A stretch of 63,964 nt of DNA, the filler included, from Kipferlia bialata (taxonomy: Eukaryota): assembly GCA_003568945.1 (NCBI GenBank). It is 5 parts of 5 records of this genome, joined end to end, with 100 filler letters (N's around TTAATTAATTAA, not from the genome) between each part and the next. Parts side by side here need not be neighbours in the genome. Positions count along the whole stretch, not along the records: positions 1 to 27,807 come from BDIP01000163.1; 4 more parts are not named here. One strand, written 5' to 3'. Made by a program: the position numbers and the translations under genes. The stretch's first letter is position 1; each line of letters opens with the position of its first letter. The notes below the pieces were generated by a model. It had not been told where the DNA came from, did not search any database, and saw only the letters and a program-made list of their open reading frames with translations. Positions 1-39,771 of this stretch are shown in pieces.

Positions 1-3000
1 CAAGCGTCAGGGTCATGGGTTATGATCTACACGATAGCTGCCAGACGTTCTTTGCTAAGCGGCACATAGGTGGGTCACGGTATCTTCGATTTGCACTAAG
101 CTATAGCTACTGTGATTTAGTCTTCCATTGGCTTATTGCTGAGCATACAATATATGACCACCTGACTCTTACGCGATAGGTGTATGTCCCCAGCTCAATG
201 AGAACCTGTGGGTGGATCTCTCAGTGGAGCAGAACGTCATCAATGCTCTTAGGTCAGCAACCACATAAGTTTGGTATTTGTCAATTAGTTGTGAATCCCT
301 TTCTCTCCTAACCCCAGGATCCGTGGTGTCACCTCCAAGTCTGAGCGTGAGTCTGTCTGCCACACCATTCTGAAGGGGGTCAGACTGTTGCAGCACAGGA
401 ACAGAAAGGTATATATTGGTGCATATATTTATATCTATACATGTGTTAGTATGTGTATCTCGATATAGTTGCATGTATATTACTTGTCATTGTGTTACTC
501 TGCTCACCCCTAGGTCCATGAACTGTCTGGTGGCATGCAGCGCCGGCTGTCCCTGGGACTGTCATCTGCAGGTGGGATATATACACGCATATATATATAT
601 ATATATATATATGTCTATCTACCATCAATAATATACAACACTATTATTTGCGTTCTTACCATGTCTGTACTATGCCATCTGCATGTGAGAGACTATAAAC
701 TAGCATACTTTCTAATCCACAGGCTCCCCCAGTCTCATCTTCCTTGATGAGCCAACCACTGGCCTGGACCCAGCTACCAAGAGGGCGGTGTGGTATGTAA
801 ATATGGATACATCAGTATTTATACTATATATATATATTTATGCATAGGATTTCTTTCTCTATACATGATGTCTCTGGACTGGACCCAGTCACAAGAGGGC
901 AGTGTGGTACGATATCCATTACAGTTTACAGTACAAAGGAATTATTTGATGCTCTTCATACACTCTGTACTGACTCCTCATGTCACTTCTCATTCGCTAT
1001 ATTTCCACTATTATACGGTATACACATGTATCCATCCCTCACCCCCAGGTCCTACATGGCAGGTCTGAGGGAGCAGGGCAGTGCATGTCTGTTAACATCA
1101 CACAGCATGGGGGAGGTGGGACATATTATACATGTATGAATGTATTAGTCTGTTAGAGTGTATCTATATATGTATATTCTCTACATAAATAGGCAGTGCA
1201 TGTCTGTTGACATCACACAGCATGGGGGAGGTGAGGATATGTATCATGCTGTATATGTGAACGTGACTATGATTCATAGATGCCCTCCTGTATTCATTCT
1301 CACTCACTAGGTCCAGCGCCTGGCCTCAGAGATCAGCATCCTGCACAGGGGACACGTGCTAGGTATATCTTTGTATAGATAGTGTATGTATCACCGACTC
1401 CTCCTTTGCTCTACGGCTGAGACGTGGTGAATACATGTATATATATATATATATACATATATATGGATACACACAATGTCTGTGTGTAGGACTTCATCTG
1501 GTAGTAAATGGAAGATGTGCACCATATGAATGCTGGATATATGTAGTATATATGAAGTATATTGTGTATAATGTAGATGTGTGCAGGATACTGTTGTAGA
1601 GTATGACTCACTTTAGACACCGGTTCCTCCTTCGCCCTGAGGCAGAGGCATGGTGGATACACTGTCACCATATCCATAGACAGCACTCAGGAGACAGGGG
1701 GAGAGGGAGAGGGTGTGTGCCAGAGTGTGGTGGATACAGTGAGGTACGGGACTTGACATTCCCACACTTATACCCGGGATTGACCCTATCATTCCACCAT
1801 GTAGCCGATAATTGTATTGTTTCCCTCTCGATGTGTTTTCGTACTCATATGCTAATAGCTGTCAGGTCAGTAGTGCTAGCTGCTTCTCCCAGTTAACACA
1901 GTCTCTCCCTCTCGGTCTCTCTTTATGGATGTATATGTGAATCTTACCTTCAGATCTGTAGCCCCCGCGGCCTCTGTCTCTCTCTTGTCACAGCATGTTG
2001 TGACACTGTCAGTCCCCAAGGAGGATGGAAGACTCCTACCTCAGGTATCAACGATATCAACTACTCTCTCTCCTACTACAGGTATACATAATAGCAGATG
2101 TTTTATTATACTCCTTACTCGATGACTACTATGCCATTATGTTTCAGTCCCCAAGGAGGATGGGCGTCTTCTACCTCAGGTATCGACGACTATTCCTTTT
2201 CCTACTCGATCTCTCCCTCCCCCCATTCTTACGCGATAGGTGGCCAGGAACCTTGAGGAGCAGAGGAGGCGGGGGCATGTGACAGACTTCCTCATTGAGA
2301 GGTAAGTGTGTGCAGTATGAGTTCTACTCACACAAACATTGATTTACATCACTCACAATCAGAGCCTCTGAGAGCATGTGTTCACCATTATTATTCATAG
2401 TGAGTATGTTTCCGATACGTGAGTGACTCTTCTTACCCCCAGGGCCTCATTGGAGCATGTCTTCACCTCCATGGTGGGACATGACCTAGACACAGACACA
2501 CATGCAGAGACACAGGGAGAGGGGGGTGTACCTTCATCCTCTGCTACTGTGGGTATTGAGGACACTAAGACTCTCATGCAGAGGCCACTCTCTGGGTGGC
2601 CCTGGGGTGTGTTCAAGAAGGCCTTCCTGGTGGACCAGGCACAGAGTGGCATGGGTGTGTACATTCATTATATATATACATATATATTCATACATGATAC
2701 TATACTGTATATTCGTGATACCGCTTTCTTTCACCAATATATACCACTGCACATCTTACCATCCTGGAAGCTTGTTTCTGCCCCAGAGTTGATACTTCTC
2801 TCACCCCAGGTGTGTTTAGGCACCTGATACTCGCTGTTGTCCTGCTGTGCATCAATGCAGCACTGGTGGCTGTGACAGGTATATACCATATATCATATAT
2901 GATAGTACGAGTATATATATCATATACAATAACTATATGACATTCTCTATTCAATGTGATGATATGTGTTTCTATGTCCTGTTCTGCATCAATGCCGCCC

Positions 3001-6000
3001 TGGTGGCTGTCACAGGTATGTATCGTGTAAGTCCAGTTCCTTTCTATTATGCGTGTGTTTTACTCAATACACTCTATACATACACTCCCGGTTGTAGTTA
3101 CATACATATATTTGACATGCCTCTCATCCCTCAGGCCCCATCCTGGAGCAGTTCTCCAAGACATGGTACCAGACAAACTACACGGAGGTAGTATTCCATA
3201 CTATATCTGCTATGCTGCTCTCTGTCCACTCTCTCGCTATCAATATACCCTCACCTATAGACCCAAACCCTATATCTTGGTTACTTAATACTATATACTA
3301 TATACTCTCTCTCTCTCTTTCCATACCCACTTACTCTAGACCCTGTGCCTAGGTTACTCTCTCTCCACTCTCTCTCTCTCTCTCGCCTTAGATATCCTCT
3401 AACTGCTAGACCCAGACCCAGTGCCTGGACTGCTGTGCCCAGTATGGCTATCTGGATCTGGACTCATGCCTCGATGACAGGTGGGCTTTCTCACTCTCTC
3501 TCTCTCTACCTCTCTCTCTCATATATCTTGTGTCTCTTACCCCCAGACCCCATGGCTTTCACTGTCTCTCTCTCTCTGAGTCTCCATATATATGACAATT
3601 GTGTAATATATATATAGTATCTCTATCTGACTTCAGACCCCATGACTGTCATACTCTCTATCTCTCTCTCTCTCTATCTCTCTCTCTCTATCTCTCTCTC
3701 CCTTGTCGTATATACCTCTTACCCCCAGACCCCATGACTGTTTCCGAACCAATGTCGGTGTCTACCTGAGCAGCGACCCCTGCTACAACTACTTGCTCTA
3801 TGAGGTATGCGGGTATCAGTATATCTATCATGAGTATATATGCATGGGTAGGTCACTTGCCACTTGCTCCTTATCTGACACTCAGGGCCTTGATGTCAAC
3901 TGGGAGTTCCCCTACAAGATCAACGACCCATCTACGGTGCTAGGGGAGGTATTGATGGCTTTGAATATCTCTCTCCAGTAATAGTGTGACAATATGCCTT
4001 TGTTGCCTCGTGTGACAGTGCAGTGTATTCTAAGAAGTTTCTACAGTTATACCATTGTTTGATTGTTGCCTACCATCTTACTCTACAGTTCGGTGTAGCC
4101 ACCTGGGGCTTCGAGAGCATGGGTGCCATCAATTCCTACGCGGGTAGAGAGGGCGAGTGGCCACCATCGCGTAGCTCTGCAGCAGACCTCGACAGCATCA
4201 TACCCTACGGGTGGATGGGCGATGGGTACCTAGGTACGACTATACCATTCAGAACTAAATTCGTAGTGTTCATATGTTGTCTTTATAGTGTATGAATTAC
4301 TGTATCTCACCCCTAGTACAATTCAGACTACTCCTATTATACGTGTTGCCTATACACATGCCTTGGCACTACTCACCCTAGTCAACAACGCCAATGGGCA
4401 CATTGACCAGAATGTACTGGATGCACACTGGGACAACATGTACATAGACAAGGCAAGTATAGATATATATACAGACCTATATATACATACATATATATAC
4501 AGATATGGTATGTATACATGTATAAATAGTGATGCACACTNNNNNNNNNNNNNNNNNNNNNNNTATGTATACATGTATAAATAGTGATGCACACTGGGAC
4601 AACATGTACATAGACAAGTAAAGATATTGATACCAATATATATATATATACGTATATATTGTATTGTGTAATACATATACATATTGAATACATGTATTCA
4701 TTATATATATTACAATATATTAATTGCATATACTTATACATATACATGTTTTATGTATATGTACATAGACTAAGTGTGTGTACCACTTTTCAAATCCTTC
4801 TAACTTCAGGACCCTGTCCTCTACCCCGACCCCAAGGACGAGGATACCAGAGGGTTCTGGCCATTCCTGGGAAGACGGTATGTCAGGATGCATATCATAT
4901 ATAGATACATACAAATATATATACAAATGTGTAACAACCGTAAATATTTATATACCAGAGGGTTCTGGCCATTCCTGGGAAGACGGTATGTCAGGATATA
5001 TATGTATTCATATATATACTTATTCGAGTATTAAGAACATCTCCTTACCGACTCTTGTGTATTCCTAGCGACTGTTAACCTTCAGGTTCATTAGCGCATT
5101 CAGAGACGACTGCCAGAACAGTGTGTATGACTGTGAGTTTGAGTGCAACTATGCACTGGCACCATTCGCCAAGTACAGTGGAGATGACACATTCGACCAG
5201 AACCAGTGCATGTGAGTGACATGTATATATGTACTTTATGTATTTATGGCATCTCGTGTATACATATATATATGAGTTCTTCTTTCTAATTCTTTTGAAC
5301 TTCAGCACAGACTGCAATGCCTAGAGTGACCATCATTAGTACAGCATGTATACGTATTTACATATCTTCATTGTGTATGTGTAATTATTATTCATGTATC
5401 TAACCTCAGCAACGACTGCAATACCAAGAGTGACTACTACATGGCCAACTGCAATGGTGAGTGGGTGAATATACGCACTAGACTAGGCTTGCTTATGGAT
5501 AATAGTAGAGTGTTGTGATTTTTGATTGTGTCATAGTAATATATAGTATTATAGGAGTGTTCTATAGTGTAATATGCATTGCCATCTGCAGTAGTGAGAA
5601 ACTAAGAACACTAGACTAGGCTTTCTTAGTGGATAATAGTATAACATTTTGATTTATAGTGTCATATGCGTGGGAAACTGCAGTGGTGAGTGGTTGTAGG
5701 CACATACATTCATATATACATTGAGTATTTTCCATATATATGTATACACTTTGCCTCTATACTATCTGACTCCTAGCTGACCCCTGGATCTCTAACAGCA
5801 CCATCGACATATTCACATACGACACTGTCGACGACATGAACAAGGATATTGTGAGGTGGGTCAATACTGTATATTCTAAGATAGTTTATTGTAAGTATTC
5901 ATGTTCTAACTACATGGACAGGGACATTGTGAGGTGAGGAATACTTAACACATATACTGTATTTAGGCCAAATAGTGTTTCTCTCTCCCACTCTCACTCT

Positions 6001-6524
6001 AGCATGCAGCGCACCACTGACTACTTTGGCTATGAGAATGACGCATATGGGTACAACCTGGCCATGAGGCAGATGAGACGAGTGCTGCCCAATTACATAG
6101 GTACATATTATGTATATATCATATAGTTATGCATATTCCTAGATAGTTGTGTATGGGTATAACCTGGCCATGAGGCAGATGAGGAGGGTCCTACCCAACT
6201 ACATCAGTACGTTATCCTTCTCTCTAACTATATATCCTCTTTGTCGATAAGCACTGTACTTTGACTTTCTTGACCTCTTTCCCCCTCTCTCTCTGTTTGT
6301 CTGTGTGTTACTATATTAGTATGTGGCTCACATCAGTCGAGTCCCTGTACCTAGACTTCCCTGACCCCTCGGATGTCACTGGTGTATCAGTATCAGATAC
6401 TGATACTGCCACTGATGCTGAGAGAGAGGGGGAGAGAGAGGGGAAGAGAGATATTGGAGATGAAGACCTCTCCCACTATGCATACAGGATGCACACATGG
6501 CTGCCCAACACACCCAGGGTGAGG

Positions 6525-6558
<34 letters not shown>

Positions 6559-9500
6559 GACTCACGATATTTCTTAAGTCTAATGTCAGACCCCTTGGGC
6601 ATACTCCCATTCTCTCTCTCTCTCTCTGACTAACAATAACTCATAAGCCTGCCTCTAAAGTCTTACTATCAGACCCCCTGGGCATACTCGCATGCTAGTC
6701 TGAACCTGCAGTTGCACAATGGAAGGTATGCATTTCCTGCTACATTGTGTTAGTCCTTCATTGTCCAACATTGCTTGTGACAGATGTCTCCGTAAACTTG
6801 TATTCTTTGATTCAGTCCCTAACTTCCAGCCACCTCTTTCAGGTCAACACTCATTTGTATACTCAAACACATTTGCTACTCTATTATTGGGCCTAGTGTT
6901 ATTGTATTACTCTCGCTTCTCTCCTACTTCCAGCCACCTTGTCCAAGTAGTGTTGACGCTTCACTCTAAGAAGTAATTCATTGTTCAACATTGTTTGTGA
7001 CTCTTATTAACCTATATATTCCTTGCTTTGGTAACTAACTTCCAGCCACCTTGTCCAGGTCAAGTATCAGAGTCATTTGCTATTTAGAATTGAATTATCC
7101 CTTCATTCCCCCATTCCGATATCATTATCTTTGATCCCTTACAATCAGCCACCTTGTCCAGGTCAACAAGGAGGGCCAGGCGTCGATCTCTGAGAACATG
7201 TACGCACCCTATTTAACTGTGGAATTGCTGACCACTGTATTATGTCATCATATTGTTATACAGTGGATATATACATTCGGAGGGCCAGGCATTCATCCCA
7301 GAAGACATGCACCGTATTCTTTTCCTATACTGCCGTAGTTAGACTCTGACACCCTGTAGATGTTGTATGCGTCATTATATATCTAACCTCAGTCGGTTCC
7401 ACATGAGTACCCTCTTTTGGTTCAGATATCTCTCTCTCTTACATCAGTCGGTTCTACATCAATGCTATCTCGACCACCGATCATCGACTGGTCTGACATA
7501 TGTTGTATATAGTGTACACCTAAGTTGGAAGATCAGATAAGCCTTTCGCGCTGTCTATATATATGTTGGACTGCGGGTGAAATCTAACCCCAGTCGTCAT
7601 ATATGTATACAAGTGTATAGGTCTCTAGCACGTACGTGTATATATTCACTATGGCATATGTGGCCATGTGATGACGCTGCCCACTAGTTAGTGGTGTATG
7701 TGAGAGCACTTGAATGTATTGCATACACTCACCACTAGGGTCCCTGTGCTGTGGATCGGCATGGTCAATGACGACATATCACGTACCACCCAGACAGCTA
7801 TGGCCAGGGGGTATCAGGTATATATGTATATATATAGTGTATCTGTATATTAACATGTATGTAGTATATGTATATACATATCCCGTACCACAGACAGCTA
7901 TGGTAAGAGGGTACCAGGTACTACTGTATATATATATATATATACATGTGTGTGTGTGTGTGTGTGTGGGTGTTGTATCTATCTCTTTCTCTCTCTTGCG
8001 TATATATACTCAATATCTTACCCATATATCTATCTATCCATATATATGTATTATATCAATGTCTCTACCCTCTAGAGCATGCACCCAGGCCATGCCATGG
8101 TATATATATATATATATATATATTGTATCTCTCCTTCTCTCTATGTACCTTGCATATTGTCTCAATGTCTCACCCCCAGAGCATGCACATATTATAGGAT
8201 TATATTACACAATTTGCACAATCATCTATCTTACCCCTCCAGAGCATGCACCCAGGCCACGGAATGGACGTGTCCCTAGGCGTCAAGTGAGTCATATATT
8301 GTCTTAGCAAGTATTGCACCCATATACATGTCGTTGTGGAATGGCTTCAGTGATGTTTGGAGTCCTCAGATACATCATATTTGACATTACCTCTTGATAT
8401 GCCCATCTAACCACCAGATACATCCAGTACCCCTTCATCGCAGACCCCTCCTACACAATGGACACAGGTATGTTTATGTTATATATATATGTGTGTGTAT
8501 TTATAGACTCATAATTGATATATTCATAGCAGACTCCTCCTACACAATGGACACAGGTATATGTGTATGTATACATGCAGTGTCTATTATTCTATTTTTA
8601 TAATAGTACTATTCCATATATATGTATGAATATTGAATGTAACACATATTCAGACACCTCCTACACAATGGACACAGGTGAGTGAGAGATTTGATACTAT
8701 TATGACTCATCATTCCAGGTGCCCTCCTGTCCCTTCTGACTGAGCTGTTGTCATCATACACAATACTACCTGAATACAGATATATATATATACATATGTA
8801 TATGTATGTGTGTATGTGAGTGTAACCTCATTCCAGGTGCCCTCCTGTCCCTGCTGACTGAGCTGTTGGCTCCTATCGTGGCACTGGTGTTCATTCCAAG
8901 GTGTGTAGATGATTGGAATAGGAATTGCTGTTATTATTGCGTTGTATATGGAGCATTGTATGTTCATTTCAGGGTTGCTGTCTCCCTGGCCTCTGACCTT
9001 AATGTATTGCTAAATGACAATACTTATAGAGACTTACACTTTGTTAGTATCTTGAATGTGCATCTAGAGTACTCATTACAGAGTTGCTGTCTCTCTGGCC
9101 TCTGACCTTGAGAACGGCAGGGTCAGACTTCTCAGGATACACTCTCTGTCCCCTGCATCCCATACGCTCATGGTGGCTGCATACTATGGTGTACAGGGTG
9201 AGGACTGTTTATACATATATACAATGTCAAGTTGCACATTCAATTTATGGAGAGGAACGTATGACTGCTCCAGGTGGATACTTGATTAGCCGCTCTCTCA
9301 AAGATACCTTACCTCCAGGTCTCTGTGTCTCTCTGCTAGCTGTCCTCATCGGCTCTGTCCTTGGGCTGTCTCTCTTCTCAGAGGACCTGCTCCAGACCTT
9401 CACCTCCTTCCTCCTGGGCACATGGGGTTGTGTCGCATGTGGGGCACTCATAGGTATATATATCTATATATGTATATATATGTATGAAGAATCTATATTG

Positions 9501-12500
9501 ATGTATTGGTTGTGTCGCCTGTGAGGCACTCATAGGTCAGTATGTCCCCTTTACACGTTCTGCTGCATAATGTTTGTATATATAGAAATATATTTCAAGG
9601 GCATTCGGAAGTACTCTCAGTGCATCTCACCCCCAGGTGTTACCCTCAAGCGCCAGGCCCCAGCCTCGATAGTGTCCAGTATCCTGATGGGTGGGTTACT
9701 TCTGCAACTATTTCTACATATTTGCCCATTCGTGACTATCTCCATCAATTTTTCTCTTTGCAAGGTTTATCATGTCTGTCTATCCATCTCTCTCTGACCC
9801 CTCAGTCTGCTCCCTGGTCCTGGGTGTGTTCGTCCCCCCAATGGCAGGTGAGGGTGTACTATTCGTATCACTATTCACATGTATATATAAGTATTACTAT
9901 TCCAATGGCATGTATCCAAGTGACCACTATACGTATACGTTTACATATATACTCTATGTATTGTTCCATACAGGTGGATTCTCCCCCCCCCCCCAAGAGC
10001 AGGTCAGTATGTGTGTCTGTTACCCTACCCCTTTCAATACTTGTTGGGCTGTGTGATATTACATTCTCGGCATCCTCACAATCAGGCATGTTCCTGTTCC
10101 CCCCTCTTGCCTTCTGTGACATGTTGTCCCACCCGTCCTCCACTGAGCACCTTCCCGAACAGTGTGTAGTGGGCATAGCGCTCTATCTAGCTGGAGCATG
10201 CCTGGTACAGGTACACATTACTAGTGTACGATGTCCCATATACTGTATACTAAATACTCTTTGAATCTCACACCTAGGCTGAGAGTGTGAGGGATGCCCT
10301 CGTATCAGTGGTCAGAGCCACAGGCAGAGTGGTCAAGGGAGTGGCTGCATATGTAGCTGGTCTCTTTAGTGGGAAGGCTGAGACAAGGTATATACTATCA
10401 GTCACACTCACACTCACACACACTCACACATACACACACTACACACACACACACACATATGTATTCATTGAATATCACGTACCTCTAATGTCTATTGGCT
10501 TCGAGAGTAGTATATATACTAATGCACATGTATATCTCAAGGTGAATATGTCTCACCACTAGTGAGGCAGAGCAAGATTCCAACATCATGTCCTCATCCA
10601 CATATGTCTATACGTTATATATATAAATGTTTCAATGTCATCATTTAACTAGCAGCACTCCAGAGGACGATGTCCTTCTATCCTATATATATATATGTGT
10701 ATATATATATGAGTATTCAAGTATTGGTTACCAACCACTAGCACTCCAGAGGACGATGTCCTTCTGTCCCATGTACCCATTGTCAGTGAGAGTGAGGATG
10801 ATCATGATGAGTACGAGTATGGGAGAGAGCCAGTGGCAGATAAGGCACCCTCTCCCGATGCCAGTCTGTGCCTGACAGACATCCATCACACATATAGCAA
10901 CGGTACTAAGGTATGGGTGTTAATGTAAGTTAGTATATACATGTTCTCTCATGATTACTTACCCCCTAGGCCCTCCGGGGTGTCTCCCTGACCCTGAGGC
11001 AGGGTGAGGTCTATGGACTCTTGGGTGTGAATGGGGCTGGGAAGACAACACTCATTAACTGCATCACAGGTATCTATAGTATATATATGAATACATATAT
11101 AGTATATATAGTATATGGTGTATATAGTATATGCATTTAATGGTATATGGACTATTGGGTGTCAACGGGGCTGGGAAGACAACACTCATTAACTGCATTA
11201 CAGGTACTAATTTGTGTGGTTGCATTATTAGCATATGAGTGTAGTGTTTGCGATAGTATATTTATATTCAGGTGTTCTTCAATCTAGGAATAGTGTCATT
11301 CAGTCCATCTAATCATAGGCATTCTCCACCCCGACTCCGGCAAGGGCATGCTCTACAATATCATAATTATATATTAATGCATGTATAGTATTCTTTGTAC
11401 TGTATATACATATATAGTATATCTGCATTAAATCACAGGCATCCTGCACCCTGACTCTGGCAAGGGCATGCTCAGTGGCCAGTGCATGTTTGACAGGGAG
11501 GGAGGGGCAGAGAGGACAGAGGGAGAGGGTGCGGAGGGAGAGAGGGCCACTGTCAGTGACCATGTGGTCTGTGTGCCCCAGCACGACCTCTTCTGGCCCA
11601 ACATGACTGTGAGGTACGCGGTTAGCCTTATCGTGTAGGAATGGATAGTCCCATACCAGGTAGCAAATTGGTACCTTAGATACTCTCTAATGATCAGGCA
11701 GCACATGGACCTGATTGCTGAAGTGCGTGGGAGAGAGAGTGGTGTAGTGGACCAGGCTCTGAGGACGGTGGGACTGACACAGCATGCAGACAAGAGGGCA
11801 GGTACCGGATTACTATAGTCATAAGTATACGTATATACACGGTATTATATGCACCTATACAGCATTCAGACAAGAGGGCAGGTACTGGATCACTATCATA
11901 TATTTGGATATATACTGTAGTATCTATCCCTGGAAGGGAGTGGGCAGACAGCATAAGACGTAGCTTACATATGTATTACGGTCTCCCCCTCCTGACTATT
12001 GTCCTTTGCTTCCTTCTCTCTCTCTGTTAGGTTCTTAAAAGTGTATCAAACCTGTATTCTGCGCTGTATTCTTAATTGTATTCGACACGTGTCTATTATG
12101 TGTCCTAACCCCAGGTGAGCTGTCTGGTGGTATGAGACGCAGGATGTCTCTAGGCATGGCTGTGTTGGGGGCCAGGTCCATACTCCTAGCTGATGAGGTG
12201 TGCACATTGCAGATGCAGTATATGCTTTCGTATTATATCAGCATGACAGTTCTTAACCACAGTCCACCACTGGCCTCGATGTCACCAGGATTACTTACAT
12301 TAATCATTTTAGATCATGTATACATATGTATCAGTGTCAGTATCCACCAGTATATAGGATATGTATTATGGTACATCAGTCTGACTGTTCTCTAACTATT
12401 AGCCCACCACCGGCCTAGATGTAGCAAGGATTGGTTACAATAATCATTTAAGAATATGTATTTATATGCATTATCATTAGTTTTATAACACTTACCCTCA

Positions 12501-13667
12501 GCCCACCACCGGCCTCGATGTAGCGACCAGTATATAGGATATGTATTATGGTATATATCAGTCTGACTGTTCTCTAACTATTAGCCCACCACCGGCCTCG
12601 ATGTAGCAACTAGACAGGGCGTGTGGACAGGTCTGCTAGAGGCAGCTGCCTCACTCACTGTGGTACTCACCACACACTCGATGGGGGAGGCAGAGGCCCT
12701 GGCTGACAGGTACTGGATATATATAGACATATGTATTGGATAAGGGTATATATACTGATACTGAAACTGTAGACATATGTATTAACTGTTTCTACATACT
12801 TGGGGGCAGAGGCTATATGAGACAGGTAACTACTATTATATTTGTGTGTATAATCGTTTGCACCCTTAGTACCTCAGATGCGTATACATTTGTATTTGTT
12901 TACTAGGCCTGGTGTGTGTATGTATCCACCCTTACCCCAGATGTGGTGTGCTGAGGAAGGGCCAGCTGGTGGCACAGGGGTCAGTGCTAGAGCTCAAGAG
13001 ACAGGTACTGATGAATATTTACTCCACTATATATACTATATTGTATATGTATACATTACATATATGGTGTATGTGTGAAGAGACTGGTGCATGCACTCCT
13101 TGTATTCTCAGGCTGCACTATTAATTGTGTACCTTCGTAGTGTAATATGTATTTGAGAGACTCAAGCAACCCTTTGCTAACCGCACTCACCCCAGGCAGC
13201 AAATGGTGTAGTTGTCCAGCTCCGCAGTGCCCCTGTGTCAAGCACCAGTGACATTGTGGACAGATCAGTGCAGACCCTGGCAGACAGGTGTTATACACAA
13301 TATAGAGATAGAGTTCATTACTACTATTTATGATTCTTTCCTATATATATATATCAGTGCAGACCCTGGCAGACAGGTTGGCGATATACAACATATATAG
13401 AGAGTACAACTATTCACTATATGTTCTGTCTGACGCAGGATCAGAGCCGACTGCCCTGTGGTGTCAGAGGAGAGAGAGGGAGAGGGAGAGAGGGAGGGAG
13501 AGGGAGAAAGTGTCACCCTCAGACTGGCCCCTGACGCCACTCTCTCCACACTCTATGCCCTACTGTGCGGAGAGGGAGAGAGAGAGAGAGAGACTGGAGT
13601 GATGTGGAGTGTATCTTCAGAGCCGCTGGAGGAGATATTCTGCAACCTGGCACAGATTGACTACTAA
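1..13667 (+). CDS. Full-size ABCA-subfamily ABC transporter, multi-exon, 5' partial
   Basis: NBD1 exons: [10 protein letters not shown] (~181), [13 protein letters not shown] (~520), [13 protein letters not shown] (~733), LLTSHSMGE (~1090), SLEHVF (~2446). A large Cys/Tyr-rich exodomain and TM exons follow (~2800-10210). NBD2: [12 protein letters not shown] (~11015-11050), [19 protein letters not shown] (~12116), [27 protein letters not shown], ending [18 protein letters not shown] at 13667. Exon boundaries inferred by eye. Confidence 0.9.
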
Positions 13668-13850
13668 GTAGACTGGTATATAATAGATTCTTTTGATTAG
13701 AAGAGGATACTGAGTAAAGATAGAGTGGTCAGACAAATAATATACACAAAGACTGACTCAGACAAATCATAAACCCTTTTCACACAGAGTTTGTTGTGAA
13801 GATCTAGGCTCTGTGTCTCATCGACTCTTTTGGGATTGTGTGTGCATCCA

Positions 13851-27807: not shown

Positions 27808-27907
27808 NNNNNNNNNNNNNNNNNNNNNNNNNNNNNNNNNNNNNNNNNNNNTTAATTAATTAANNNNNNNNNNNNNNNNNNNNNNNNNNNNNNNNNNNNN
27901 NNNNNNN
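27808..27907. other. Artificial contig linker N44-TTAATTAATTAA-N44
   Basis: Six-frame stop linker at 27852-27863 in a 100-nt spacer. Confidence 0.95.
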
Positions 27908-27960
27908 CTCTAATTCTCTCTCTCCGTCTTTCACACTCCCCCCCCCCCTTTACACTCCAG

Positions 27961-34788: not shown

Positions 34789-35284
34789 GATATGTATTGT
34801 TGGTGTTTGCTGTTTGGATGTGTGCCATATGTTCCATGTGTTTCACTCTTTGGAGTGTTGTTTTGTGGACCTCTTTGTGAGGTCTCTGTCGTTTCCCTTG
34901 TATTTCATGTTTCTTATTGGTCAATAGACAAACTCGTAGAGATGGCTCCCAATGATACTCTTATCGGAATCAATGATCTATTAATCATGATACGTTGTCA
35001 CTTCAGATCTAACAGAAAACACTAAAAGGTATCAAAGTCTTCCAACTCAAAAGGTTGGACAAAACGAAAAACAGTATCGTGTCTGTCCCGTCAAGTATGA
35101 ATGGGGACAGAGACACAGACTAGTACAAATACACAAAAGTCGAGAGAACCCAAGAGGGACCGTCTCGCTTAACACTTGGGTAGTGAGTGGCACTAACCCT
35201 GGGGGGCACAGACATGTTAGGGCATGGTGTGGCTTGATATGGGACCACAGAGGGAACTCTCCATGCTGGAGAGAAGGACTAGGC

Positions 35285-38200
35285 CTAGTAGTACGACCCA
35301 TACCCCCTCGACACCCCTAGACCTAGGCCCAGACCGAGACCTGACGCCATGGAGTCAGGGTCATCCCCCTCCCTCTCTGCATCCAAGTCTCCATCCATGC
35401 TCTGGGAGGGGTATGGACTGGCAGAGTATGCATCAGTCTGGTCCTGGGTCCCAGTCATCTCAACATCACCGGAGGCATCAGCAGCACCACCTGGACCATT
35501 GTCACTGGGGGGTATGGGGCATGTCACACCAGACCCATCCACGCCCATATCCACATCCCTATCAGCAGATGGCACCTTAGCACTATGGTCTGAGGCCTCT
35601 CCCCCCTCTGGCACTGGGTCATCCTCTATCAGACTAGAGGGTAGACTGGAGTGCAGGGTGGGGTCAAGGAGGACAGAGTCTGTGTAGTGCTCAGACGGCC
35701 CATGCCCAGTGGGGACAGCCACAGTCTTGGAGGAGAGAGACGACATCATCATCTGCTTGGCAGTCACACTCCGGTCAGACCCACCACCCCCTCTCTCCCT
35801 GTCAACAGAGGGTGAGGCACCCATGTCTCCAGGGGTGCTACGGCCAGAGTCCAGCCCGGACCCATGCTCTCTCTCTCTCTCCCTCTCTCTCTCCCTGCCC
35901 ACCCCGACCATGGTCATGTCTAACAATGACCCAACCACCGCAGACACATCCCTGGCAGTGCTGTCCTCCACTGACCCCAGACCTAGACCTGACTGCACGT
36001 CACAGTCCCCATCGCCCTGTGACGTGGTACCCACACCCCCTGGGAACTTCCCTCCCTCACTGGCTGGGGGGTCGAGGGTCTTTCGGGTATCGGCAGAGAC
36101 ACCCTCACCCTCACCCTCAGCATCAGGTGGGACTGCCTCTGAGGCACTGGTCTTGGGGGCTGTACCACTAGTGTCCAGCTGACTGGGTGTGGGCTCAGGC
36201 GTTGTCTTGTCTGCCTTGGTAACAGCACCCCCTGTCTGTCCCTTGGCGCCCTTCCCACCCTTGCCCGCCTTGACAGGCTTGACAAGCACCAGGGGCATTG
36301 GCTCCTCATGGCCTGTGGGTAGGAAGGAGGGGTCCCAGGGGGTCCAGGCAGGGGTGGAGGCCTTGTCAGCCTCTGCATCCCCCTTGTCTGTGACACTACT
36401 GGAGGGTGTGTCCTCCTTGGCACCAGTTGTGGTTATGGGGGTATCCATGGCAACAGGTGGGGATGGAACAGGCTCATCAACAGCTGTCGCCTCAACACTT
36501 ACATCAGCTGCAGGTACAGGAGCAGAAGAGTCCCCAGATGGAACCATTGGCACATCTCCACCTACTGGTACTGAACCAGACACTCCCTCTGCCACAGTCT
36601 CTCCCTCTGCCTCAGCCTTCTCCTGGCCACCCAACCCAGCCCCACTCTCTGCTGACACAGACACACACACCTCCGCCCCCTTCCCATCCTTCTCCTTCTC
36701 CTCCTTCTCTCCCTCCTGGGCCTTGACACACACCCCGTCCTTGTTGAGCCCGTACTTGGCCCTCTCCGCATCACTCAGATAGGCACACATGGGGGAGCCC
36801 CTGGGGTCCCAGTGGGGGCCAAGGTCGAGTCCGGCCTGGTTGCATATCCTGCAGGTGAGACAATATACTCAGGTATAGGATACATACGACACACACAATG
36901 AATTGGGGATATGAGGCAGAGACGTGTAAGCTACACTATGACTCACATTAGCGTCATGGACAAGTTGGCCCTGGACAGCTGGATCATGTTGTCTGACTTG
37001 GCAGTGTGCAGCACAGCCCCATAGGCACTGGGGGTGAGGGGGGGGGGGGGGTTACTAATTACTTATACTCATGTATAGATATTCTATACCCACCCTATTG
37101 CGTTGGTGCCTGGGTTGACGCATGTCTGTGTCTTGTGCACTGCCACAGACACCATCCTGCCATACTGCATGTACACACCCTCCAGGGCTGCCATGTCTGC
37201 CCTGTGCTGCCTGTCTCTCTCCCTCTGCTCGAGGTAGTCCCTCCTCACACGCTGCCAGGTGGTACTGAGGGGTCAGGGAGATACTCAATAGTAAATGTAT
37301 TCATCACTGACCATGCAGGAGTGTATTGTGTAAATAGTAGGGATCTCTTACCGGTTAGACCTCACAAGCACTGGCAACTCCTCTTGGTGTCTACGCAACC
37401 GGACCAGAACCTCGTCTTCTCCCTGGGCATAAGTAGACATTAGTGTATTGAGTACAACTCCTATATTCATGAATTGAATACACTCACTAGAGCCGCAGGA
37501 TGGTGTACCAACACATATGCATATATATCAGAAACAATACATCGTACCGAGGCCCTCTGGTGCTGGGTGGCTGTCCTGGGGTCCAGAGATGGTGTGGACA
37601 TCAGGATGCCCTTCATGGCAGTGGTGACCTAGGGTGAGGGGAGGGATGGTTAAATAGAGTAACTATATCAATACCATTAACGGTGAGAGTGTAAATACAA
37701 GCACCATCACACCTTGCGCTGTGCCACCTCCAGGGCATCCTCCTGCTGCCTCATCCTGCCTGTCCCAGGTGCCCTGGGGGACATGTCCAGGATGGAGTAG
37801 TCACGGGGGGTGGGGGGGACAGAGGCAGGGGCAGAGGTAGGGGCAGGGGCAGGGGCAGCATCTGGCTTGGATCCATCAGTACCACCGGCACCCTCTCCTC
37901 CTGTGGGTGCACCAGCACTGGTAGTGGCTGGTGAGGTACCCTGCACTCCTGAGACAGCTGGGTTGGTAGAGGCAGTGTCTGTGACAGGGGCCTCAGTCTC
38001 AGTCTCAGCCACAACCGCAGTGCTCTCTGGTACAGGCGCAGACACCGATGGAGATGCCTCCTGCTCACCAGCCACAGATGCACCTCCTGACTCATCGTCA
38101 AGAGTAGCAGTTCCAGGTGACATCTGGGTACCCAGAAGGTCCACCGAGACCTCACCCGACCCGTCCATCTCCACGTCCCCATCTACAGCCACAGGGGCAG

Positions 38201-39568
38201 ATGGGATAGATGGTGCAGTGGATGCAGATGGTACAGATGGTACAGTGACTACTGGACTCGATGGAACCGGGGTCTCAGGGGCAGCCACTGCTGGTGCAAC
38301 GGGACTAGACTGTGACTGTGACTGTGTATGGTCAACATCAGACACGGCCTGGGAGGCAGCAGGGGTAGATATACCCTGGGACTGGGTGACGGACACCTGA
38401 TCAGACCCCTGATCCATGGGAGAATCAGCCTGCCCCTCTGGCAGATCACCACCCCCTGTCTGAACCGCACTCCCAGTCACCCCACTCTCCACCTTCACCA
38501 GCACCTCTCCCGGCACTGCTCCCACACCACCCACCCCAGGCTCCTGCTTGACCTGGAGAAGGCCAGACCCAGGGGCACTCTCCACCTCCACATCTCTCTC
38601 CCTCTCACCTGCAAAGGCAGGGACGTCGGCTGCGTGTGACTTCCCCCTGCCGCTCTCTCTCTTGCTCTCCCTGCTGCCCCTCACAAACCCCTTGTACAGC
38701 TTCTCGTCCTTCCAGGCAAAGGTCGAGGGGGTCCAGATCTTGCGGATCACCTTCCGGACACCGTACAACAAGGCCTTATCGGTCTGGAGGCTGGACCTGC
38801 GTCTCTCCCTGGCCCTGAACCCCCCCAACAGCTGTGACAGGGTCTCAGAGGCCAAGGCGTCTGCCCGCCTGGCCCTCTCTATGCAGAGCGAGAGGTCGCC
38901 CCTCCAGAACTCCCCCAGCATGGGCACCTCCATCAGTAACACAACGGAGGGGGGGTCAGGGAGGGAGGAGGCAGAGGCGTCAGGGAAGGCAGCTAAGGTG
39001 GCAGCCTTGGCCAGGGTGGATGGCCGAGGGGGGGACAGGGGGGGTATGATGTATGACGTCATGTCCTTGTCCTCTGAGGCAGAGGGCAGCGTGGGGAACT
39101 TGACCTTGTCGCCCTCGGCCTCCTTCTGCACATCCTGCATGGGCGCAAAGAAGGGCAGGCTCAGCCTGGCCCACAGCTTCCTCTCCTCCAGGGGTGTCTC
39201 CTCAGCTGCCATCGCGTAGGACTGGTCCACGTGGATGAGTTTGTTTCTGCCCTTGGCCTTGACCCACAGCGCCATGGCCCTCTGCTCCTCCCCAATCCGG
39301 TTGACAGGCTGGGGGGCGGGGAGGGCGGCAGAGGTCTCGGGGTCATACGAGAACTGGGTGCGTTGCCTGAATATCAGTGGGTGCTAGAGAAGTGGGAGTG
39401 ATGATAGTGAGACAATGTACCTGTTGGGTCTAGTGGCTATGAGGTGGGACACCATCTTGCCCTTGGCCTTGGTGCCCTTGTACGTCTTGGACTTGGCCTT
39501 TGTCTTCACCTTGGCTCTATACTGGTTCTGCTTGGTCTCCCTCGCACTCCGCTTGATGCTCTGGCACC
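35285..39568 (-). CDS. Large hypothetical low-complexity protein, 5' partial
   Basis: Two long GC-rich exons (~35285-36849, ~37712-39368) linked by small in-frame exons bounded by minus-strand GT-AG introns; runs to the contig end. Confidence 0.75.
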
Positions 39569-39625
39569 TGGGGTTATAGGGAAAGGGGGGGGGGGGGGGG
39601 GGGGGGTTTTTTTTATCATACAAGA

Positions 39626-39725
39626 NNNNNNNNNNNNNNNNNNNNNNNNNNNNNNNNNNNNNNNNNNNNTTAATTAATTAANNNNNNNNNNNNNNNNNNN
39701 NNNNNNNNNNNNNNNNNNNNNNNNN
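39626..39725. other. Artificial contig linker
   Basis: TTAATTAATTAA at 39670-39681 flanked by Ns. Confidence 0.95.
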
Positions 39726-39771
39726 TGGTTTTTTTTTTTTGAGAGCCCCCCCCCCCCCCCCCCCACCACAG

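What the first reader, a model, noticed from the sequence alone, without database searches (positions are those of the whole stretch)
11009..11473. Nested 'junction inside an intron': recoded donor copy and recoded acceptor copy in one intron at the Walker A exon
Seen: exon A end 11009-11069 ([20 protein letters not shown]) is copied at 11143-11203 with 5 differences, all silent, and the copy is followed by GT. Exon B start 11439-11473 ([12 protein letters not shown]) is copied at 11319-11353 with 4 differences, all silent, and the copy is preceded by ctaatcatag. The layout is A|gt..[A'|gt...ag|B']..ag|B: a complete diverged exon-intron-exon junction sits inside the orthologous intron. A single tandem duplication would give the order B'A'. 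Inference: either an allelic junction was inserted into the intron, or splicing is nested (twintron-like), or the spliceosome strictly selects the outermost sites.
Basis: partly seen in the sequence, partly recalled or inferred. Interest (0 to 1): 0.82.

Follow-up and report, generated by a model that had tools for sequence, protein, structure and literature searches.

The report
Stray exon-edge copies fill protist introns
An intron of an ABC-transporter gene in the free-living protist Kipferlia bialata holds a leftover copy of the end of the exon before it and of the start of the exon after it; such copies sit in about a third of the introns examined, likely came from diverged versions of the same genes by unequal exchange, and are likely ignored in splicing, so the 'junction inside an intron' is likely two ordinary copies meeting, not a special nested intron.

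Summary
A DNA unitig spans most of the block unchanged. It is not unique. In 109 curated introns, 34 carry exon-end+GT copies, 20 carry AG+exon-start copies, and 9 carry both (6.6 expected if independent; Fisher p=0.18), all 9 in A'-then-B' order. 36 introns are one-sided, so inner sites must be skipped there and nesting is not needed. Across 70 copies, fourfold sites differ at 24.7% and zerofold sites at 4.3% (ratio 5.7; at most 2 for a neutral copy), so most silent divergence predates copying. A second diverged gene copy with unrelated intron ends and its own donor copies exists in DNA; its RNA contig joins exons cleanly. No RNA from the window's own copy was seen. Closest known: amphioxus 'mirage' boundary repeats; here the intron parts are mostly unrelated and spacers rarely fall below 50 nt. 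Verdict: real, part of a window-wide variant of a known kind; twintron reading unsupported.

The parts
10970..11069 (+). Exon A, Walker A exon of the second nucleotide-binding domain of an ABCA-type transporter (subfamily label from recalled motifs); real donor GT at 11070
   Evidence: PF00005 E 3e-10
11070..11142 (+). First spacer: intron start with no acceptor of its own, about 18% G+C
11143..11203 (+). A': copy of the last 61 nt of exon A, 5 silent differences, no acceptor before it, GT after it (donor score 2.1 vs 3.7 for the real donor)
11204..11318 (+). Core GT..AG segment, 115 nt, ordinary intron length, not detectably related to either spacer
11319..11353 (+). B': copy of the first 35 nt of exon B, 4 silent differences, behind an acceptor as strong as the real one (1.2 vs 0.8), no donor at its end
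11354..11438 (+). Second spacer: intron end with the real branch point and AG, about 21% G+C
11439..11613 (+). Exon B
194..13669 (+). Host gene (5' part lies outside the window); 22 of its 44 curated introns carry exon-edge copies
7818..8242 (+). Another two-sided intron (donor copy, then acceptor copies)
8468..8836 (+). Another two-sided intron (2 donor copies, 1 acceptor copy)
14738..16426 (+). Three consecutive two-sided introns of the next gene (14738-15356, 15434-16062, 16130-16426)
19249..20064 (+). Two-sided intron with 3 donor and 2 acceptor copies
24407..25014 (+). Two-sided intron with 3 donor and 2 acceptor copies
48679..49141 (-). Two-sided intron in the DUF422 gene; the published protein P0001 uses its outermost sites

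Best explanation
The intron holds one copy of the upstream exon's end with its GT and one copy of the downstream exon's start with its AG, which likely arose as two independent events of a kind common in this window and are likely spliced out with the whole 369-nt intron. Shown: the copies, their frequency, order and silent excess, and that only the outermost sites keep the frame. Inferred, step 1: each copy arose by an out-of-register exchange (unequal crossover or break repair) between homologous gene versions, alleles or close paralogs. Their exons differ mainly at silent sites and their introns have become unrelated, so the copy carries the other version's exon letters and intron start or end. 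Inferred, step 2: selection keeps only partial copies that lack the second splice site (a B'A' unit would be a false exon) and that lie behind an A+T-rich spacer of about 50 nt or more. Inferred, step 3: the spliceosome takes the first donor and the last acceptor, probably by pairing sites across the true exon and reading the A+T-rich spacers as intron. After copying, the copies decay neutrally.
For: Frequency and independence: 34 donor-side, 20 acceptor-side and 9 two-sided of 109 introns; 6.6 expected; Fisher p=0.18; order 9 of 9. 42 of 44 donor copies are followed by GT; none is a whole exon. Silent excess: 126 silent and 71 replacement changes, pN/pS 0.16; strict recount 117 and 80. Third-position share is 0.655, against 0.40-0.46 in neutral-copy simulations. 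Fourfold 75/304 vs zerofold 53/1223, p=4e-9. Copies over 14% diverged lose the bias (32 silent, 44 replacement), and one has a stop, as expected of decay. A template of the needed type exists: a second DNA copy at depth 425 has 15 of 21 listed exon differences silent and unrelated intron ends in both loose ends that could be compared. It has its own donor-side back-jumps (12199 to 12153, 12712 to 12672), and its RNA contig joins those exons once, at GT..AG. Intron sequence beside the copies keeps weak homology to the real sites (p=1e-4 and 2e-3 vs neighbouring introns). Only 2 of 70 spacers are under 50 nt, against 63% expected for uniform breakpoints. Published models P0001 and P0006 match outermost splicing.
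Against: No RNA contig from the window's own gene copy was laid, so splicing of this very intron is not shown. RNA evidence for skipping acceptor-side copies is lacking, and copy acceptors score as well as real ones (16 of 26 equal or higher). The sequenced second copy is not the donor of A': over 37 nt it differs from both A and A' at 4 silent sites (loose end), so the donor version is unseen. Whether the second copy is an allele or a paralog is unresolved; the kinase gene showed no second protein. My gene models were built with outermost sites, so their open frames are partly by construction, and the published models are AUGUSTUS predictions. Independence rests on 9 cases with low power; one-step insertion of this block is not excluded. 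One window only; no genome was held.
Confidence: 0.6

Rival explanations
1. One event pasted a whole junction (exon end, intron, exon start) from a diverged allele into a break in this intron; the one-sided copies are the same repair resolved by homology at one end.
For: A' and B' are similarly diverged (8% and 11%), both silent-only, and the core is of ordinary intron length. The two spacers align over most of their length, p=0.02 against other introns.
Against: Two-sided introns are not in clear excess (9 vs 6.6). The spacer similarity vanishes under composition-matched nulls (p=0.14 and 0.30). Many two-sided introns have unequal numbers of copies on each side.
Confidence: 0.17
2. The copies are old local tandem duplicates whose exon-like part is repeatedly refreshed by gene conversion from functional exons of other alleles or paralogs, while their intron flanks drift.
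For: It explains copies identical to the exon but with unrelated intron sequence after them (13 of 70 identical), and the anchoring at exon edges. A few units are plainly local tandem repeats (15595-15809, 95% alike; 12375-12609).
Against: It needs the same diverged homologs as the best explanation plus an extra step; only weak intron homology remains; there is no direct evidence of conversion tracts.
Confidence: 0.13
3. Twintron-like nested splicing: the inner A'^B' intron is removed first, then the outer one, and this route is required.
For: The inner segment has GT, branch-like motif, AG and ordinary length; intron definition favours the nearest pair in fungi (PMC7138796, passages). The inner acceptor scores as well as the outer.
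Against: 36 one-sided introns would be destroyed by use of their inner site. The second gene copy's RNA skips two inner donors. The inner intron interrupts no element of the outer one. Occasional inside-out removal remains possible.
Confidence: 0.06
4. Assembly artefact: divergent haplotypes were stitched in tandem by a short-read assembler.
For: Short-read draft; a diverged second copy exists; one apparent copy (4586-4618) sits beside an N gap with duplicated flanks.
Against: An unchanged unitig bridges A' to B at full depth, and another (11500-12404) bridges further copies. X1 holds 0.95 of sampled words of 8000-16000, where 344 bases are N. Copies decay by degrees.
Confidence: 0.03
5. The copies are still translated as alternative exon pieces, and selection on protein keeps them silent.
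For: pN/pS 0.16.
Against: Donor copies have no acceptor (AG before 2 of 44) and acceptor copies no donor (GT after 3 of 27). Use of either inner site here gives stops. 38 of 70 copies carry replacements.
Confidence: 0.02

Closest known systems
Amphioxus 'mirage' repeats (Adh3; globins BflGb6, BflGb9; Ebner et al. 2010, PMC3087553, passages read)
   Same: Tandem copies spanning an exon-intron boundary, at either the 5' or the 3' boundary, most keeping GT/AG, units of about 100-160 nt, reported not to disturb regular splicing, differing between haplotypes.
   Different: Mirage units are 81-100% alike, intron part included. Here the intron parts are mostly unrelated even when the exon part is identical, the exon parts carry about 16% excess silent divergence, spacers have a floor near 50 nt, and a third of the examined introns are affected rather than a few loci.
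Human F7 intron 7 VNTR (Borensztajn et al. 2006, PMC1557585, abstract)
   Same: Repeated exon-end plus donor units downstream of the real donor; the most upstream donor is used and the others stay silent.
   Different: Identical 37-bp units at one locus, donor side only; it gives no account of the last acceptor winning.
Spliceosomal twin introns (stwintrons) of fungi (PMC7138796, passages)
   Same: An intron-like GT..AG unit lies inside another intron.
   Different: In stwintrons the inner intron splits a donor, branch point or acceptor, or is shown to be removed first. Here no outer element is interrupted, the inner unit is flanked by exon copies, and no intermediate is shown.
Tandem exon duplication / mutually exclusive exons (recalled)
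   Same: Exon-like copies in an intron with mainly silent differences.
   Different: Those are whole exons with both splice sites; none of the 70 copies is (at most 85% of the exon).
AU-rich intron definition in plants (PMC2682935, review, passages)
   Same: Introns are more A+T-rich than exons (40% vs 57% G+C here; the two spacers 18-21%), a possible cue for treating spacers as intron.
   Different: An analogy only; nothing is tested in Kipferlia.

Membership tests
Mirage repeats | Duplication spans an exon-intron boundary and lies in the adjoining intron | tested here: met
   44 donor-side and 26 acceptor-side copies; wrong-end and reverse-strand controls 0
Mirage repeats | Occurs at 5' and at 3' boundaries, mostly keeping GT or AG | tested here: met
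   42 of 44 GT; 26 of 27 AG
Mirage repeats | Minisatellite-like units alike over the whole unit (81-100%), intron part included | tested here: not met
   Median identity run into the intron is 3-4 nt; 6 of 113 segment pairs pass p<0.01 under a Markov null. Only a few arrays are true tandem units.
Mirage repeats | Regular splicing is undisturbed | tested here: inconclusive
   Shown for two donor copies of the second gene copy; no RNA from the window's copy
Mirage repeats | Copy number varies between haplotypes or somatically | tested here: inconclusive
   The second gene copy has a different set of copies, but allele or paralog is unknown
Stwintron (strict sense) | Inner intron interrupts the donor, branch point or acceptor of the outer intron | tested here: not met
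   Outer GT (11070) and outer branch/AG (11438) are intact; the inner unit lies 134 and 120 nt inside
Stwintron (broad sense) | Inside-out removal shown by a splicing intermediate | not testable with these tools
   Only assembled contigs; none from this gene copy
Mutually exclusive duplicated exons | Whole exon copy with its own acceptor and donor | tested here: not met
   No whole-exon copy; AG before 2 of 44, GT after 3 of 27
Recursive splicing | Internal AG|GT site with its own branch point that regenerates a donor | not tested
   A' ends in AG before GT as exon A does, but several donor copies do not end in AG (listing); branch points before these sites were not scored

The most novel reading that the evidence does not exclude
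Across the K. bialata genome, tens of thousands of introns carry exon-edge copies captured from alleles about 16% diverged at silent sites. They would be a fossil record of frequent out-of-register exchange between homologs in a hyperdiverse free-living fornicate (indirect evidence of recombination or sex). A spliceosome with a reduced protein set would then reliably pass over an equally strong upstream branch-point/AG to use the last one, under a roughly 50-nt A+T-spacer rule.
Probability: 0.35. Interest if true: 0.7.

Novelty: new variant of a known kind. Interest (0 to 1): 0.42.

Why it matters
The single locus is not special. The pattern it belongs to offers many natural duplicate splice sites with which to test how a short-intron, reduced spliceosome chooses among competing donors and acceptors; the last-acceptor choice is not explained by first-come scanning. 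The silent excess also gives a way to read past allelic diversity and homologous exchange from one genome of a free-living relative of Giardia. In practice, these copies can mislead gene predictors and exon counts in K. bialata.

Tried and rejected
No whole genome was held, so no genome-wide count. No RNA holder was listed in the run search; one same-sample run guessed to be RNA gave spliced contigs of the second gene copy only; the lack of RNA from the window's copy is no evidence of silence. Protein searches for the host transporter found nothing (limited to 2000 aa, 0 hits), so no published model of it was compared. Homology of the two spacers looked suggestive but failed composition-matched nulls; rejected as evidence. 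The 7-nt repeat shared by the end of exon A and the end of the intron is within the window's chance range. Transition bias does not explain the silent excess (kappa 1-8 simulations). A G+C bias in direction of change between fourfold and zerofold sites was not significant (p=0.20). One acceptor-type hit not behind AG (intron at 1363) was dropped before counting (27 to 26). One donor copy beside an N gap (intron at 4453) was kept but may be a scaffold overlap. The per-site rule counted one L>F codon as silent; the strict recount is. Earlier-scan look-ups by place and by sequence were empty. The primary mirage paper (Canestro 2002, PMC117041) was not held and is known to me only through Ebner et al. 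Literature searches (listings only unless stated) showed no description of these copies in Kipferlia. In the genome paper PMC5874029 I saw passages and section 12 ('duplicat', 'heterozyg', 'ploid': 0 hits in the main text; supplements not read). PMC6679479: passages. PMC11782384: abstract only, not used.

Full report
Setting. The window is from the intron-rich free-living fornicate Kipferlia bialata: two exons match K. bialata proteins at 100% (P0001; P0006). No whole genome was held, so all counts are from this window. The finding lies in a multi-exon ABC transporter gene (194-13669, 5' part outside the window). Exon A (10970-11069) matches PF00005 and holds the Walker A motif of the second nucleotide-binding domain.

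Observation. One search confirms it. A' (11143-11203) differs from the last 61 nt of exon A at 5 silent sites and is followed by GT. B' (11319-11353) differs from the first 35 nt of exon B at 4 silent sites and follows AG. The 369-nt outer intron is spacer 73 + A' 61 + core 115 + B' 35 + spacer 85. Only the outermost pair keeps the frame; A^B', A'^B and inner-only splicing all give stops. All-silent at 9 of 9 has P=5e-6 for random change and 3e-4 for a neutral copy beside a purifying exon. In run X1 a unitig covers 11169-11509 without a difference at depth 454, the same as its neighbour (452). The block from within A' to exon B is therefore in the reads. The junction from the first spacer into A' was not bridged in that call, and X1 may be the assembly's source.

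It is one of many. An unbiased repeat scan showed exon-edge copies throughout the window. I curated 109 introns in 8 gene pieces and scanned each for the upstream exon's end and the downstream exon's start. 34 introns hold 44 donor-side copies (42 followed by GT). 21 gave 27 acceptor-side hits, of which 26 in 20 introns follow AG; the other was dropped. Controls: 0 of 109 for the upstream exon's start, the downstream exon's end, or the reverse strand; 0 of 2118 shuffled pairs. A further 28 introns in six other gene pieces gave 1 copy. The total is 46 of 137, a lower bound because short or decayed copies fall under the threshold. Density differs between genes (22 of 44 in the host gene, 3 of 23 in the kinase gene). 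Nine introns are two-sided, against 6.6 expected if the sides are independent (Fisher p=0.18), and all nine have donor copies before acceptor copies (p=0.004). No copy is a whole exon. Donor copies lack an acceptor (AG before 2 of 44) and acceptor copies lack a donor (GT after 3 of 27). The nested layout is then what two boundary-anchored copies give.

Splicing. 25 donor-only and 11 acceptor-only introns cannot be rescued by inside-out removal, so inner sites must be skipped there, and nesting is not needed in two-sided introns. My models use outermost sites by construction. Independent but indirect support: the published P0001 equals my model, including a two-sided intron, and P0006 matches at 1417 of 1417 residues. 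These are AUGUSTUS models trained with transcriptome data (PMC5874029, passages). One search shows a second DNA copy of the host gene (depth 425). A 1563-nt contig of run X2 (guessed to be RNA) carries that copy's letters, joins exons at GT..AG (11611^11696, 12195^12583, 12706^12938) and runs from exon B directly into exon-A-type sequence. In DNA, back-jumps of 47 and 41 nt at two exon ends indicate that copy's own donor-side copies (the letters between are not given, and the assignment of the second one is inferred). Its RNA has each exon end once, so the first donor is used in 2 of 2. No RNA contig of the window's own copy was laid, so this intron's splicing is untested, and there is no RNA test of acceptor-side copies. 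That side is the open puzzle: copy donors are weaker than real ones on average (p=2e-4), but copy acceptors are not (16 of 26 equal or stronger). Spacers have a sharp floor: 2 of 70 are under 50 nt, against 63% expected for uniform breakpoints, and 1 of 32 among near-identical copies. Site-to-site spacing has a median of 108 nt on both sides. The two spacers here are 18-21% G+C against 57% for exons. I infer that cross-exon pairing plus A+T-rich spacers marks the copies as intron; plant AU-rich intron definition is an analogy (PMC2682935, passages).

Origin of the silent bias. Over 70 copies there are 126 silent and 71 replacement changes (pN/pS 0.16), or 117 and 80 by a strict codon rule; using only the nearest copy per side gives 91 and 56. 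Changes by codon position are 48/20/129. A neutral copy beside a purifying exon gives a third-position share of 0.40-0.46 for any transition bias tried, against 0.655 observed. Fourfold sites differ at 75 of 304 and zerofold sites at 53 of 1223, a ratio of 5.7 where at most 2 is expected, leaving about 16% silent divergence that predates copying. Copies over 14% diverged lose the bias and one has a stop, as expected of later decay. The intron sequence beside a copy keeps only weak homology to that beside the real site, even when the exon part is identical (13 of 70). The simplest reading is that exon copy and adjoining intron come from another functional version of the gene, joined out of register. 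The second copy shows that such versions exist: 15 of its 21 listed exon differences are silent, and its intron ends are unrelated in the two loose ends that could be compared. It is not the donor of A' itself, since it differs from both A and A' at 4 silent sites in 37 nt. Whether it is an allele or a paralog is open: P0001 is encoded identically on two contigs, the kinase showed no second protein, and some second-copy contigs are at about half depth.

One-step insertion of the whole junction remains possible. A' and B' are similarly diverged, and the two spacers align (p=0.02), but that similarity fails composition-matched nulls (p=0.14, 0.30) and two-sided introns are not in excess.

Comparison. 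The closest described structures are amphioxus 'mirages': tandem duplications of either exon-intron boundary that keep GT/AG and do not disturb splicing (PMC3087553, passages). An earlier scan note on a sea-urchin gene (e1-7880682) pointed me to them; I checked the paper, not the urchin locus. The human F7 intron 7 VNTR shows first-donor choice among repeated donors (PMC1557585, abstract). The Kipferlia copies work like mirages but fail one defining feature, unit-wide similarity, so I file them as a variant. They are not stwintrons (PMC7138796, passages), since no outer signal is interrupted. K. bialata retains 87 of 174 spliceosomal proteins searched (PMC6679479, passages). My searches showed no description of these copies in Kipferlia; subscription papers and supplements were not seen.

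Verdict. Real feature; the special nested reading is unsupported; the locus is one instance of a frequent, likely allele- or paralog-derived exon-edge duplication. Best explanation 0.6; new variant of a known kind; interest 0.42.

Noticed in passing
window 47344-49287 (-): DUF422/carotenoid-synthesis-family gene (P0001) with at least four introns. Its only other hits are 34-42% identical metagenome proteins, a possible lateral transfer from prokaryotes that later gained introns. The same protein is on two contigs.
   Followed up: partly
window 11432-13005: A second, diverged copy of the ABC transporter gene is in DNA at similar depth, and it alone appears in the RNA-type contigs: possible allele- or paralog-specific expression.
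   Followed up: partly
window 11900 onward (intron 11802-12114): An intronic stretch is shared with another DNA contig that continues into unlike sequence: a dispersed repeat or a third gene version.
   Followed up: no
window 4453: GC donor needed for the open frame; its apparent donor copy lies beyond an N gap with duplicated flanks and may be a scaffold overlap.
   Followed up: partly
window 7594-7604: An 11-nt micro-exon is needed to keep the transporter frame; inferred only.
   Followed up: no
window 9975-10002: A probable short exon with a C run that does not fit the frame; possible homopolymer error. It was left out of the gene model.
   Followed up: no
window 39770-47160 and 34900-39570: Genes here show no exon-edge copies in 19 introns scanned, unlike the membrane-protein genes at 1-25900; copy density may depend on gene class or on having diverged homologs.
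   Followed up: partly
window 15595-15809 and 12375-12609: Young true tandem units in which the intron part is also conserved, showing that local duplication of existing copies also occurs.
   Followed up: partly
window 27809-27908, 39627-39726, 50009-50108, 61247-61346: N-flanked six-frame stop linkers join separate sequence pieces; they are not biological.
   Followed up: no
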